Made by a program: the position numbers. 64,000 nucleotides of DNA from Ophelia neglecta (Eukaryota): the NCBI GenBank assembly GCA_965285935.1, contig OZ260664.1, forward strand, positions 46,314,001 through 46,378,000, read 5' to 3'. Positions 1-63,000 of the stretch are shown here, one piece after another (positions within the stretch are counted from its first letter, which is position 1; every line of letters begins with the position of its first letter).

Positions 1-3000
1 CCTTTGGCACTGTTTAGCATTTTAAGTCGATCTCAAGGGCCATGTTTCTAAGGAGAGGATTCTCACAAACTCTCCCTTTGTCCACCTTTCAATCTGGTCA
101 TCAAACCAAACAGGCCCAATTCAAACTTTCCAAATAAATGCATCAACATCTGCTTACTTACTGTTTTTTTCAAATATAAACATTCACTTTAGCATATAAA
201 CTTGTTTTTCACTGCAGCAATGCGAAGATAATTTTGTTATAATACCTGGACCACTGTGTAACATGAATCTTTTTTTCTACACAGATGGAAAGGTCATTAA
301 GATGAAAAGTTTTTCCACTACAGAAACGTAGCATGACAGAGTGTTCAGGTTTCTGAGCACTGCACATATGGCTGCCAATAGAAATCCAAGTTGGTGTCTA
401 TTTCTATTGGCAGCCATAAGTAATTTGTCATACACCGAACACATGTTAATACATACCTGTAAAAAAGCAAGGATCTGGCATCATATCTATGGTGTACATG
501 TTGTCATTATTGTGAGATGAGCTGGATCCCCGTCCACTGTCAGCACCATTGGAGAGATCTGTTGAACAGCCACTGTCTGAATCTTTACAGTCCAGTCTCA
601 CAGGATTTAACAGGGTGCACTCAGCATTAGGAATCTACAAGACAAAAAATAAATAATTTAAATTATATAAAAAAAAGGTTATGCATATAAATAAAATGTT
701 ACCAGAAGTCATGTGTGAAGAGAGGGGCACATAATTGTAACTGATTAATACTAACTTAAAATATAAATTAGTAGTTTACTAGGGGACCATCATTACAGGG
801 AAAATAGCATAGTAAATTGAGTGTTCTATATAAATAATAAATGTATGGTGCAGTATGTGATAACTTAAAGCTGTAATGGCTGTCAGATTTATGTACATTA
901 AAGTGTACAGTTCAGGTAAAACAGTGAATGCAATGGGACCTGCTGGGAGAGTAGTATGTGTTCCCTCTCACCCCTGCTCTCACCCCCATTACACCCAACA
1001 GGTGTATTTGACCTTTTCTACACCGAAATGAATGCTTATACTGGCCACCATTTTATTTCCCAGCCATGCGTCTTGACCGTTGATTACTGGTATAACCAAC
1101 TATTCTCAAGTTTTGCTTTGTGATCACACTAGTTAACTTTCCCCATTCACCAGCCTTTACTAAACCACCCGTCTCTTCTTTTCAAGGGCTGCCCTTGAAA
1201 TCTTTGTCTCCAAATGGATAAAATGACAGCTTGTTTACAAGTTAAAGAAAACAAACGGTAGTATTCATACTCTAAAGGCCTTTTGTGTCCCTCTGAATGT
1301 GACTATATGTAGCTTACATAGCTTTGAGAATCATGTTGATTGGTACAGTTCATTTCATTCTGCTCCATCTTCCTGACCCAAGTCCTTACTGATGATTTCC
1401 ACCTTCCTGTGTGCCGGCCATTATATAGGTTTCAACATTTAGAAAAGGCACAGACAAATAGGTGTCTAGTAATGTATTTAAAACAGCCCTAGATGACACC
1501 AGACTATATGGCTATCTGTCATCTAATCTATCAATGTCTTTATTACCCAGAGCATCTGACCAGTGGCACCTTTTTCTTTGTAAAAGGCAAAACTCTGGAG
1601 AAGACATTTTCCACTTTGACTACAGATGTCAGGTAATGTTCAGGCACACAATGACCAAAGTTTAACTTTGGACAAAATAGAGACTTATTTTCATGAATGT
1701 GACACAAGTTCAAGGATACTTGTGTATTTACTTCAAAACTCCAATTAAAATTCCCATGATAATATGACAAAGGTCACAGGCTAAAATTTATATGGCTTCT
1801 AAATATGTTCCTTGCAAGAAATTTTTTTATAGAAAACTTTCAAGAGCTTCTTACATTAAACATAAACTATGTCTGCACTTTGACTTGTAGAAAAGCAGCT
1901 TACGGCAAAACATGTTCTGTTCATCAGGTGAATGTGTGAAACAAACATGGACATACCAAGAGTCTAGGGTGCTGCCTAGATTCCCCTAGGAGCACATGCG
2001 TAGTGGCCAAGGAGGACATGTCAAGTGGAGAAGGACCCACTAAAGTCAATCAACCAAGGCTGCCATGCCCCAAACAGAGGCTGGCCCCCAAGCCCAGCCT
2101 CAAATCCTCTGAACAAACTTGCAATAGGAGTGTGAAATCGTTTCTTTGCATGAACCTGCACCTCTTGCATGACTTCTATCTCCCATTTGTTCTTCTGCCA
2201 ACACTGAACAGGAAATCAGGCAGACAACTTCAAAGAAGAAAGTGCTGAGTTATTAACTTTTGGATGAATCTGCCCACCATGTTGTCTTCTTGATCACCAA
2301 ATTAGCTCCTCAAAAGGCAATTCATATAAAAAGGACTTGAATAAAATCAACACCTCAGCCTTTTCATGAAAATTACCATGATTGAAGCAAATATTTAAAA
2401 GTCAGGAAATTGAATAATTCTAAATGTTGTAAAGCAAAATCCTGTGATCTAATAACAAAGTTGATATTAAGCTTGCCTGATTGAACAATTAGAAATTAGA
2501 TTGTCTGATAGAAAACTTAAGACATTAATTAAAGACCACCTAAAGTGGACAAATTCCTAATATCAGCCCCACAATCTCTCAATCCTCCAGGACACGTCAG
2601 CACACGCTACACAGAATCCTTTTGACCAATTACAGAGACAATACTCAGAGCAATAGCTAGTTGGGCTAATTGTGTGCGAAGTTCAGCAATCTGGGGCAAA
2701 TACCTCCACTGTATTGTTTAATACCTTAAAAGAAGGCATGAATCAGTTGAGGATTATGAAATGTTAATAAAGCAGATTAAATTTCTCTTTATAATGATTC
2801 TAATTTAAGTCTTAGACCTTCCAAGTGGCTTGTTCTTCAGCATTTTCTCCGTCTTGCTTTCTTACATAGAGGCTGGCTGTTAGTACAGAGTTAACAGGCT
2901 TACTTCTAAGTTTAATCTTTACAGAGTTCACCCATTAACAGATATGATAATAAACAATGCACATCTTTAGAAAAGTAAAATTGAATTACCTTCATTTCTC

Positions 3001-60000: not shown

Positions 60001-63000
60001 AGCTTAAACGATACTATATAGTTGTATATATGCAGATTGAATAATCTGAAGCATAATGTATGGGATTCCACAGCATGGGGCAACCAATGTCAGAATAAAT
60101 TGATATTTTAATCAGCAATCAAACAACCACAATAATACCCTAATTGATTATGCTATCAGTTAAGAATATATAATACTTACCTGTGGAAATTTAAATGAAG
60201 GATCATCATAGGCAGCATAGGAGCCTTTTGATCGTCTGCTATCAGCATCTGAATCTCGGGAAATATTGGCACCACTGGCTGAGCCAGCATCAGCGTTATT
60301 ATTACCATCTTCTAACTGCTTCACTTTGTTTTCTATGTCCTTGTAATCTTTTGAATACTTCCTGAACCACCTTACAATTAATAACACAACAACCAAGATG
60401 ATAAGAGCAAGTCCTCCAACAATTCCTATGGCAAGAATAGTGGACTGGTCTAGTTTTAGGAGAGATGAATTCAATTCCCTGGGGGCAGCAAGACTGCTGT
60501 TGACTTTCACCTTCAAGCTCCCTTCAGCAGACAAAGGTGGAAAACCTTCATCCTGAATGACAATGCCAATGTCAAAAAGGTAATCACCTACTGTGAGAGC
60601 TTGTCGTAAAAATAAAGAACCAGTGTCCTTGTTCATGGCAAAAAAATTCCTTTCATTTCCTGACAGTATCATGTAGGTAAGAAGTTGGTTCCTGTCCTTG
60701 TCAATATCTGTAGCTTCAATTTGGGCCACTTGCTGGCCTTCGGCAATATTACTAGAAACTTCAACCATGTCCTTTCCTACCCTAGGAAACACCAATATGG
60801 GTGCATTGTCGTTTTCATCTTCAATCAAGACAGTTACCTCGGTGGTTGATGTCTTCTTTACCCCTGCCACTCCTGCTGACAGTAACAAGAGATAATTGTC
60901 AGTCTTCTCTCTGTCAGGCACTTTGGCTGTATAAAGTTTTCCAGTGTGCGCATCAATTGTAAACATATTCTCCTTACTCTGTGAGATAATTTGGAAAACA
61001 AATTTGATGTTAAGACCATTAAGCGAGGGCTGTAAAGCCACTTGGCCCACCTCTGTCCTTTCTGGTAAGTTTTCCATAATGTTAAACAAATACATCTTTT
61101 GCATGAATTCTGGAATTGCATCTACAATATGCACAATGTCTATAACTACATGTGCAAGAGAAAACCTGCCAGGCAAACCATGGTCTGAGGCCTTAACTGT
61201 GAAATTCACCCAGGCTTTGTCTGCAAAGCTTGCTAGGGTTTTCACAGAGATGTGCCCTGAAGTTATGTTGATTCTGAAGACTTGGTCCATGGGGGGCTGA
61301 ATGGCATAGGACACTGCCCCACTCAGCCCTTCATCCTTGTCCTGAGCCTCGACAGTAAGGAGAGAAGTTCCTACAGAACTGTCATACAACATGGATGCTC
61401 GGTACAACTGCTGAGAAAACACAGGAGCATTGTCATTTACATCCAGAACAACTATAATTAAAGTCTTATTGGAGCTCAGAGAGGGGAATCCATGATCATC
61501 ACATCTTATAGTAAGCTTGTAAGAGGAACTTTCTTCCCTGTCCAATGCAGTTGTGGACAGTATTTTAAAGTCAGATTCTGATATCTTATCCAATTTAAAC
61601 CTATTGTTGCCCAGAAAGCAGTCAAATTGTCCACCCCTGCCTGAGTCTGGGTCCGTTACGACCATGTGTGCCAATGACCTCCCGGCTGCAGCGCCCTCCT
61701 CTATAAGTACATGGGTGCTGTTACCATTGAATATATTCAGCAGCAAGCCTGGGGAGTTATCATTGAGATCAACTACCTTTATTTGAACTACTGCCTGAGC
61801 AGACAAGGTCAGGAGGCTCTCATCCCTGGCAATGACATTTAATGTGTATGAGCTTTTATTTTCATAATCAATCACTATTTTTGTTGTAATGGTTCCAGTT
61901 TCCTGGCCAATGTCAAAAATGTCACCAAAAGATTTTAGCGTCTTTTCAGAGAAGGAATACTGTATCTTGGCTCCTTGATCAGGATCAGTAGCTGCCAGAG
62001 TCAATATTGCACTGCCCACTTCCAGATTTTCTGTCACCTTAATATCGTAAGTCTCCTTATCGAATTTGGGACTATTATCGTTAATGTCCAGGACTTCGAT
62101 TTCAACGGCCAGCACTGCAGAGTTCTGAGGTGTTCCGCCATCAGTCGCAACAATCTGCAAGTTGTATTTATCTGTCACTTCTCGGTCTAATGACCCTACC
62201 AGTACAAGATAGAAAAATTCTTCATCAACTTCCACAGAGTAGCTCAACTCAAACAAGTCCACCGAGGATATCAAGTTGTATTGGGTAACACCAAACCGCG
62301 GACTGTCCTGGTCTTCTGCAGTGGAGATTGCCAGGGAGGTCCCTGGAGTAGAGCTCTCTGGCAATGAAAACTTGGCATTATCCACAGAAAACTGGGGAAT
62401 GTTATCATTAATGTCTAATACTTCCACTTGCACCTTTATAATTCTAAAATACTGATAGGGTAATAACTGGATGTTTAGTGAAATAAGACAGACATCGGCA
62501 GCAGGACACAGTTCATCTCTATCTATAGATTGAGTGGTTTGAAACAATCCTTGATTTGAAACTGAGAAGAATTCATTCCAGTTTTTATCATGTTCTAGTA
62601 TTGACCACTGAAGTTCACTTTTTACAGTTGCGTTATACACTAAAAATAATCGAGCATCATTGTAGATATTTCCTAGGAATGCGCCCGGTCCTTCCTCTTC
62701 TTTGACAGAGTATGATAACAGTGTATCGCTCTGGCACATGACATCCCTGGATTTGGCAAGAAAAACCCAGAGTATCAAAATCCAGGGGTACTTCAAGCTC
62801 TGGAGACGTTGTCCTGCCATTGTCAAGTAATATAGACTGTCTCTTTCTGAATGTTTCACATGTCTTGGCAGCCTAGTTACATACACTGTCTGGTTAATAC
62901 CTGGGTATCATTCCGGTTGATAAAACATCATCATCTGTAAAGTAAAGGATACTTATTACTTTCATAGCATAGCCTCAAATTAACATAATCAGAATACAAA

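What the first reader, a model, noticed from the sequence alone, without database searches (positions are those of the whole stretch)
457..62820. Invertebrate-type tandem protocadherin cluster with private but phase-compatible cytoplasmic exons
Seen: three co-oriented 7-EC protocadherins, each with a single ectodomain exon ending in phase 0, a motif exon (0->1) and, in B and C, a phase-1 terminal exon. Known: vertebrate clustered Pcdh-alpha/gamma splice many variable exons to one shared constant region, and expanded protocadherin clusters are described in cephalopods. Here each gene keeps its own tail. Inference: any upstream ectodomain exon could be spliced in frame to a downstream gene's exon 2 or 3, giving combinatorial ectodomain/tail receptors. 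The locus may also resemble a precursor of the variable/constant design for a cell-recognition code. Shared phases are also simply expected from gene duplication.
Basis: partly seen in the sequence, partly recalled or inferred. Interest (0 to 1): 0.75.

Follow-up and report, generated by a model that had tools for sequence, protein, structure and literature searches.

The report
Three old tandem protocadherin genes
The window holds three complete, anciently diverged cell-adhesion (protocadherin) genes lying head to tail, each with its own tail exons; this is an ordinary small gene array, and nothing in the sequence shows that the genes share or swap exons.

Summary
The anatomy is confirmed to the base. 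Three minus-strand genes each have one large exon (signal peptide, 7 cadherin repeats, TM helix) ending in phase 0. Each also has a small 0->1 exon carrying a DSDSG...DSGxG motif. In B and C a long phase-1 terminal exon follows, with its own stop. All junctions are canonical GT-AG.

The combinatorial reading has no support. The paralogs are only 34-38% identical, and the B and C terminal exons show no detectable similarity. Genes A and C each have a 57-60% identical relative in other, unnamed records. C's private tail has one relative with the same C-terminus.

In a tree, A, B and C with those relatives form one clade (97/96), apart from vertebrate clustered and delta2 protocadherins. No shared upstream element was found.

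Shared phases therefore follow from descent from one three-exon ancestor. Published work says cephalopod arrays also diversify by whole-gene duplication, not shared exons (PMC9068888).

Cross-gene splicing is arithmetically possible but untested, because no RNA data were available. The organism is unresolved: not a vertebrate family, yet CpG depletion is vertebrate-like (o/e 0.26).

The parts
60181..62820 (-). Gene C exon 1: ATG, signal peptide, EC1-EC7, TM helix, 64-aa juxtamembrane part; ends in phase 0 at donor CAG|GTAAGT
   Evidence: 57% identical relative P0004
59319..59481 (-). Gene C exon 2 (163 nt, phase 0->1), motif exon with DSDSGWSSD
57963..58936 (-). Gene C terminal exon (phase 1, 323 codons plus stop), Ser/Arg/Asn-rich tail ending ...GYVNLASDDVIEELEVAV
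   Evidence: one relative P0160, E 5.8e-17, with the same C-terminus
48445..57962 (.). 9.5-kb spacer between the stop of C and the start of B. Holds C's presumed 3' UTR (AATAAA 94 and 197 nt after the stop) and B's upstream region
45751..48444 (-). Gene B exon 1: signal peptide, EC1-EC7, TM, juxtamembrane part; ends in phase 0 at donor AAG|GTATGT. The start could also be 48516 or 48498
38915..39110 (-). Gene B exon 2 (196 nt, phase 0->1), motif exon with KDSDSGCSADLSNG...DSGQG
37998..38680 (-). Gene B terminal exon (phase 1, 226 codons plus stop), tail ending ...IHEIHV
9094..37997 (.). 28.9-kb spacer between the stop of B and the start of A. No cadherin fragment, and no Pfam match in the 14 ORFs of 94-132 aa scanned from this spacer
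6370..9093 (-). Gene A exon 1: signal peptide, EC1-EC7, TM, 92-aa acidic/Ser-rich juxtamembrane part; ends in phase 0 at donor CAG|GTGAGC
   Evidence: 60% identical relative P0126 ends its match at the same ...RPLFLQ
457..634 (-). Gene A exon 2 (178 nt, phase 0->1), motif exon with KDSDSGCSTDLSNGADSGRG. A's terminal exon lies beyond base 1

Best explanation
These are three separate, complete protocadherin genes. They descend from one ancestral three-exon gene by old tandem duplications and sit head to tail on the minus strand.

Each gene makes its own single-pass membrane protein. Exon 1 gives the signal peptide, seven extracellular cadherin repeats, the membrane helix and a short juxtamembrane stretch. 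Exon 2 gives a short acidic, serine-rich DSDSG...DSGxG motif. A long private last exon gives a low-complexity, probably disordered tail that ends in a hydrophobic-x-Val C-terminus.

Shown here: the exon anatomy, the domain content, the age of the paralogs, and the conservation of A, C and C's tail in other records. Inferred from family membership: calcium-dependent homophilic cell adhesion through EC1-EC4, and tail-specific signalling. The identical intron phases are inherited, not a device for exon sharing.
For: - Anatomy.
- Old paralogs: exon-1 identities are 37.7% (A/B), 34.3-34.7% (A/C) and 33.8-35.3% (B/C).
- Closer relatives elsewhere: A is 60% identical to P0126 (547 of 917 positions), with the match ending exactly at A's exon-1 end. 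C is 57% identical to P0004 over 69% of its length.
- Tree of 38 rows: {B, A+P0126, C+P0004} form one clade with support 97/96, and A+P0126 and C+P0004 are each 100/100 (the quick version is). The duplications therefore predate the split from the source(s) of P0126 and P0004.
- Motif exon: the exon-2 motif is alike in all three pairs, with 0 of 300 shuffles reaching the observed score in each.
- C's tail: the terminal exon has 1 relative among 1.84 billion representatives (E 5.8e-17), with the same last 18 residues apart from 4 changes.
- Private tails: each of B and C ends in its own stop, followed by poly(A)-type hexamers.
- Family: solved-structure relatives are protocadherin EC1-4 and EC1-6 fragments.
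- Literature (passages read): protocadherins typically have one long exon for the ectodomain plus TM (PMC10084454). Cephalopod arrays are whole multi-exon gene duplicates without shared final exons (PMC9068888).
Against: - No transcript data were available, so every exon join, including the within-gene ones, rests on sequence signals and phase.
- Gene B has no close relative in the one search made for it. The best hits were 32-35% identical over 51% of the region, among 13 hits from 1911 candidates. B also has a long tree branch (1.1), so its conservation is unshown.
- P0126 is a read-through prediction and does not confirm A's exon 2.
- Poly(A) hexamers occur at the background density of 1.9 per kb, so they do not prove termination.
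- Whether further paralogs flank the window is unknown. C's ATG is 1.2 kb from the window end, and A's last exon is outside the window.
Confidence: 0.85

Rival explanations
1. Transcription reads through from an upstream gene, and its ectodomain exon is spliced to the exon 2 or 3 of a downstream gene, giving combinatorial ectodomain/tail receptors.
For: All three first exons end in phase 0, all exon 2s run 0->1, and both terminal exons start in phase 1, so every such join keeps the frame. The genes are co-oriented. Poly(A) hexamers after B and C are no denser than background.
Against: - Each gene has its own canonical acceptors closer by (introns of 0.7, 6.6 and 5.7 kb, against 21-60 kb for cross-gene joins) and its own stop.
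- C's tail is conserved together with a C-type gene family elsewhere.
- The tails are not interchangeable copies: B e3 against C e3 gave 119 of 300 shuffles reaching the score.
- For cephalopod arrays of the same build, the literature states that first exons are not spliced to shared final exons (PMC9068888, passages).
- Phase identity is expected from duplication alone.
Confidence: 0.04
2. The array is an evolutionary precursor or homologue of the vertebrate variable/constant clustered protocadherin locus.
For: It shares the large ectodomain exon, the tandem co-orientation and the small downstream cytoplasmic exons.
Against: - In the tree, the vertebrate clustered and delta2 sequences form their own clade (100/99), separate from the 29-row clade that holds A, B and C.
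- The window genes have 7 EC repeats rather than 6.
- No upstream element is shared by the three genes.
- Neighbours are only 34-38% identical.
- The large first exon is a general protocadherin trait, not a cluster trait (PMC10084454).
Confidence: 0.03
3. One or more of the three, most likely B, is a decaying or non-functional copy.
For: B has no close relative in the search made and the longest branch, 1.1.
Against: B has an intact 898-codon first exon with all six linkers in canonical D-x-[ND]-D form and five DRE motifs. It has an intact motif exon whose core is 74% identical to A's (17 of 23 positions), and a 226-codon open terminal exon with canonical splice sites.
Confidence: 0.05

Closest known systems
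Tandem multi-exon protocadherin genes of spiralians (cephalopod arrays; Lottia is named as a clustered exception in PMC6339937)
   Same: Co-oriented whole genes. Each has a large ectodomain/TM exon plus its own downstream exons, and there are no shared constant exons (PMC9068888, passages; PMC10084454).
   Different: There are only three genes in 62 kb, and they are deeply diverged (34-38%), not tens of closely related recent copies. The one named cephalopod protein in the tree (Argonauta, P0135) falls outside their clade. The organism is unknown.
Vertebrate non-clustered delta-protocadherins (delta0/delta1 with 7 EC repeats)
   Same: Seven EC repeats, one large first exon, and small cytoplasmic exons carrying short conserved motifs. 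Delta-protocadherin isoforms differ in their tails (PMC7339444, passages).
   Different: - There is no RVxF/RRVTF-type or WIRS motif in any tail exon.
- Sequence is no closer to Pcdh1 (182 bits) than to Pcdh18, Pcdh19 or gamma-A1 (231, 223 and 214 bits) over EC1-4.
- The DSGxG motif resembles a stretch of a Pcdh17-like tail only weakly: 2 of 300 shuffles for A e2 and 111 of 300 for B e2.
- Vertebrate delta genes are dispersed, not tandem (recalled).
Vertebrate clustered protocadherins alpha/gamma (variable exons plus shared constant exons)
   Same: A tandem, co-oriented series of large exons, each encoding a whole ectodomain plus TM.
   Different: Seven repeats rather than six. Private rather than shared tail exons. 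No common upstream element. Low identity between neighbours. A separate clade.

Membership tests
Protocadherin family (cadherin superfamily) | N-terminal Cadherin_2-type EC1 followed by tandem cadherin repeats (6-7 in all) | tested here: met
   PF08266 (E 3e-14 to 3e-18) plus 6 PF00028 stretches in each gene; six linkers each.
Protocadherin family (cadherin superfamily) | One large exon encoding the whole ectodomain and the TM helix | tested here: met
   Uninterrupted frames of 915-945 codons, with a TM helix at residues about 787-816 of each exon 1. The trait is described in PMC10084454.
Protocadherin family (cadherin superfamily) | Cytoplasmic tail without the classical-cadherin catenin-binding domain | tested here: met
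   No Cadherin_C match in the three exon-1 frames or the two terminal-exon frames. The 54-65 aa exon 2 peptides were not scanned against Pfam.
Protocadherin family (cadherin superfamily) | Homophilic antiparallel EC1-EC4 trans binding | not tested
   Inferred only from homology to solved EC1-4 and EC1-6 protocadherin fragments.
Vertebrate clustered protocadherins (alpha/gamma design) | Many variable first exons spliced to one shared set of constant exons | tested here: not met
   Each gene has its own exon 2, and B and C have their own terminal exon with a stop. tblastn found one motif exon per gene and no tail-less first exons. RNA was not available.
Vertebrate clustered protocadherins (alpha/gamma design) | Six EC repeats | tested here: not met
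   Seven in each gene.
Vertebrate clustered protocadherins (alpha/gamma design) | A conserved promoter element upstream of every variable exon | tested here: not met
   No 8-, 9- or 10-mer (exact) or 12-mer (1 mismatch) is shared by the 1180 nt upstream of the three ATGs. Shuffles gave a mean of 1.0 shared 8-mers. The vertebrate element itself was not searched for. The element as a defining trait is recalled, not taken from a call.
Vertebrate clustered protocadherins (alpha/gamma design) | Phylogenetic placement with alpha/beta/gamma sequences | tested here: not met
   The vertebrate clustered and delta2 rows form a separate clade (100/99). The window genes lie in another 29-row clade.
Delta1-protocadherins | Seven EC repeats | tested here: met
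   definition from PMC7339444.
Delta1-protocadherins | CM1, CM2 and CM3 (RRVTF, PP1-alpha site) in the tail | tested here: not met
   No [RK][RK]?[VI]x[FW] match in any cytoplasmic exon. CM1 and CM2 were not tested as profiles, because no reference sequences were at hand. A's terminal exon is outside the window.
Delta1-protocadherins | Closest sequence relation to Pcdh1/7/9/11 | tested here: inconclusive
   Among solved structures, Pcdh1 EC1-4 scores 182 bits, below Pcdh18 (231), Pcdh19 (223) and gamma-A1 (214). No delta1 sequence was in the tree.
Cephalopod-type expanded protocadherin arrays | Tens of closely related, co-oriented, multi-exon genes in sub-arrays | tested here: not met
   There are three genes, 34-38% identical. 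Co-orientation and the multi-exon build are met. The flanks beyond the window were not seen.

The most novel reading that the evidence does not exclude
The three-gene array is an ancient, conserved protocadherin mini-cluster of a non-cephalopod invertebrate. In it, read-through transcription and the shared 0 / 0->1 / 1 phase scheme are used to splice upstream ectodomain exons onto downstream motif or tail exons. That would make it a small combinatorial adhesion/signalling code that arose independently of the vertebrate variable/constant design.
Probability: 0.04. Interest if true: 0.7.

Novelty: new member of a known kind. Interest (0 to 1): 0.2.

Why it matters
As it stands, it matters little. 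It adds one more example of tandem, whole-gene protocadherin paralogs outside vertebrates, with a cleanly resolved three-exon structure and a conserved DSDSG...DSGxG motif exon.

It would matter if RNA data showed cross-gene joins. That would be an independent route to ectodomain/tail combinatorics in a cell-recognition family.

Two smaller points may be useful to specialists. First, the paralogs are old and A and C have separate relatives elsewhere, so the array may be a conserved linkage group. Second, the region shows vertebrate-like CpG depletion although the genes match no vertebrate family.

Tried and rejected
- **Naming the organism: failed.**
  - The three word-index searches returned only unnamed records as close relatives. 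Named hits were about 24-36% identical.
  - The Atlas could not read the window's own protein. For the stored relative P0126 it gave only generic protocadherin clusters, with commonest phyla Chordata or Mollusca.
  - Rfam found no families at the gathering threshold.
- **Other genes or mobile elements in the spacers and introns: none found.** 20 ORFs of 94-132 aa gave no Pfam match at E<=0.01. Long repeats within the window are only intronic tandem arrays.
- **Homology between the B and C terminal exons: rejected** (119 of 300 shuffles).
- **Terminal exon of A inside bases 1-456: rejected**.
- **Poly(A) hexamers as evidence of termination: rejected as uninformative**, since they occur at background density.
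- **Papers not held:** three look-ups by id failed. Albertin 2015, Wu & Maniatis 2000 and Vanhalst 2005 are therefore known to me only through citations in passages I read.
- **Not checked:**
  - The joined spliced proteins, which were not searched or folded.
  - Supplementary files, which are closed. These include Supplementary Fig. 6 of PMC9068888 and the motif tables of PMC6339937, which may bear on gene counts per phylum and on tail motifs.
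Full report
**The window.** It is 64,000 bases with no N, 37.6% G+C and a CpG observed/expected ratio of 0.26.

**Observation.**
- A stop-to-stop scan under the standard code finds only five frames of at least 150 aa. All five are on the minus strand: 60160-62907, 45706-48543, 6322-9117, 57963-59012 and 37998-38696.
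- The three long frames each carry one Cadherin_2 domain and six Cadherin domains.
- Each also has six inter-repeat linkers spaced about 105 residues apart and one TM helix. Each therefore encodes a signal peptide, seven EC repeats, a TM helix and a short cytoplasmic stretch.
- Against solved structures, the best matches after a long CELSR1 chain are protocadherin EC1-4 and EC1-6 fragments. In all, 127 distinct sequences matched at E<=1e-10.

| Gene | Exon 1 | Exon 2 | Exon 3 |
|---|---|---|---|
| C | 62820..60181 (0->0) | 59481..59319 (163 nt, 0->1) | 58936..57963 (1->stop) |
| B | 48444..45751 (0->0) | 39110..38915 (196 nt, 0->1) | 38680..37998 (1->stop) |
| A | 9093..6370 (0->0) | 634..457 (178 nt, 0->1) | beyond the window |

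- All five donors are GT (GTAAGT, GTATGT, GTGAGC, GTAAGA). All five acceptors are AG behind a pyrimidine tract.
- A's last exon is not in bases 1-456, because no minus-strand frame runs off the window start.
- I left out any search or fold of a joined spliced product.

**How alike are the three genes?**
- tblastn of each exon against the window shows that the first exons are 37.7% (A/B), 34.3-34.7% (A/C) and 33.8-35.3% (B/C) identical.
- No other cadherin fragment or spare motif exon exists in the window.
- The exon 2 peptides share only a core of about 20 residues: KDSDSGCS-DLSNG...DSGxG in A and B, and DSDSGWSSD...DSG in C. This similarity is real, since 0 of 300 shuffles reach the observed score in each of the three pairs.
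- The terminal exons of B and C are not detectably alike (119 of 300 shuffles).
- The tails have no RVxF/RRVTF-type or WIRS-type motif.
- Both complete tails end in a hydrophobic-x-Val sequence (...EIHV and ...EVAV).

**Relatives elsewhere.**
- Gene C, exon 1: 7575 proteins reached E<=1e-20 among 8000 scored candidates, and 120 were listed. The best, the unnamed P0004, is 57% identical over 69% of the query. All the others are about 26-36% identical.
- Gene A, residues 640-908: 22 hits among 4274 candidates. The best, the unnamed P0126, covers 100% of the region. Over the whole first exon it is 60% identical (547 of 917 positions). Its match ends at the same ...RPLFLQ, after which the prediction reads through the donor.
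- Gene B, residues 630-898: 13 hits among 1911 candidates, none better than 32-35% identity over 51% of the region. No close relative of B was found.
- C's terminal exon, in the exhaustive search: exactly 1 hit at E<=0.001 among 1.84 billion representatives. This is P0160 (328 aa, E 5.8e-17), which ends ...GYLNLADDDVIQELEVTV against C's ...GYVNLASDDVIEELEVAV.
- C's private tail is therefore a conserved coding exon.

**Tree.**
- I used 38 rows: the three first exons, 27 unnamed hits of roughly one-gene length chosen, one JGI-labelled row, one Argonauta row and six named vertebrate rows. The other stored hits, mostly of more than 1200 aa, were left out.
- The method was IQ-TREE with LG+G4 on 926 columns.
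- A+P0126 and C+P0004 each have support 100/100. Together with B they form a five-row clade at 97/96 (the quick version is).
- Vertebrate delta2 plus clustered sequences form their own clade (100/99), and Argonauta falls outside the window genes' clade.
- The three genes are thus each other's closest relatives in this sample. Their duplications predate the split from the source(s) of P0126 and P0004.
- Caveats: the tree is rooted only at the midpoint, no delta1 or delta0 sequence was included, and the sample comes from my own hit lists.

- The 1180 nt upstream of the three ATGs share no 8-10-mer (exact) and no 12-mer (1 mismatch). Shuffled controls gave a mean of 1.0 shared 8-mers. There is therefore no cluster-type common promoter element.
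- AATAAA or ATTAAA follows both stops (at 94 and 197 nt after C's, and 192 nt after B's). However, such hexamers occur at 1.9 per kb on this strand, so this is uninformative.
- Within-gene first introns are 0.7 kb (C), 6.6 kb (B) and 5.7 kb (A). Cross-gene joins would span 21-60 kb and skip intact exons, stops and a downstream gene start.
- None of this excludes rare read-through chimeras. Only RNA data can do that.

**Literature** (passages read with the find mode, not whole texts).
- PMC9068888 says cephalopods do not generate protocadherin diversity by splicing multiple first exons to shared final exons, but by full gene duplication. It also says ecdysozoans lack the family, ambulacrarians have one gene and other spiralians a handful.
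- PMC6339937 says invertebrate protocadherins are generally non-clustered, with Lottia and cephalopods as the exceptions. It found no delta1 CM motifs in Octopus vulgaris.
- PMC10084454 says one long ectodomain/TM exon is a family trait. It reports protocadherins in cnidarians, deuterostomes and lophotrochozoans.
- PMC7339444 gives the delta0/delta1 (7 EC) and delta2 (6 EC) definitions and the CM1-3 motifs.
- PMC9795677 adds tandem-duplication dating in octopods.
- My two full-text searches listed no paper whose title or abstract start describes cross-gene splicing in invertebrate protocadherin arrays. This is not a claim that none exists.

**Verdict.** The best explanation is three independent, anciently duplicated 7-EC protocadherin genes with an inherited three-exon plan (confidence 0.85). 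Homophilic adhesion and tail signalling are inferred from family membership and were not tested. The combinatorial-splicing reading (about 0.04) and the proto-cluster reading (about 0.03) remain formally open but have no positive evidence. This is a new member of a known kind, and I score its interest at 0.2.

**Unresolved.**
- The organism. It matches no vertebrate family, and the literature distribution favours a spiralian or cnidarian, but the CpG depletion (0.24 in non-coding and 0.33 in coding sequence, with TpG and CpA at about 1.3) looks vertebrate-like.
- The flanks of the window.
- The linkage of the relatives P0126 and P0004.
- All RNA-level facts.

Noticed in passing
window 1-64000: There is strong CpG depletion with TpG/CpA excess everywhere. 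CpG o/e is 0.26 overall, 0.24 in non-coding and 0.33 in coding sequence, and TG and CA are about 1.3. This pattern resembles globally methylated vertebrate DNA, yet the genes match no vertebrate protocadherin family. The organism stayed unidentified.
   Followed up: partly
window 42494-43119 (intron 1 of gene B): There is an array of about 18 copies of a 34-bp unit (GCCAGACTACACACAAAGTCATGACTAAACAACA), with about 71% matches.
   Followed up: no
window 44087-45013 (intron 1 of gene B): A C-rich 36-40-bp tandem repeat lies at 44620-44798. Two 158-nt direct repeats, 78% alike, lie at 44087-44244 and 44856-45013. It may be the remnant of an inserted element.
   Followed up: no
window 61111-61131 (gene C, EC5-EC6 linker, residues 564-570 of exon 1): The EC5-EC6 linker of gene C reads HIVDAIP instead of the usual D-x-N-D-N-x-P. 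Its relative P0004 also has a degenerate form, ATVDVIP. A has DVDDEP at this position. This may be a calcium-poor linker conserved in the C lineage.
   Followed up: partly
window 57963-58020 and 37998-38020: Both complete tails end in hydrophobic-x-Val (...ELEVAV...HEIHV). The relative of C's tail ends ...ELEVTV. That this form fits a class II PDZ ligand is recalled and was not tested.
   Followed up: no
window 60160-60180, 45706-45750, 6322-6369: Reading through each exon-1 donor meets a stop after 6 (C), 14 (B) and 15 (A) codons. Intron retention would therefore give short-tailed membrane forms. The unnamed relative P0126 is predicted in just this read-through form.
   Followed up: no
window 9094-37997: There is a 28.9-kb interval between genes B and A. 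It has no frame of at least 150 aa, no cadherin fragment and no Pfam match in the ORFs tested. Its content is unexplained.
   Followed up: partly
window 45751-48444 (gene B): Gene B has the longest branch of the three (1.1, against 0.23 and 0.32). It had no close relative in the search made for it, although its reading frames and calcium-binding linkers are intact.
   Followed up: partly
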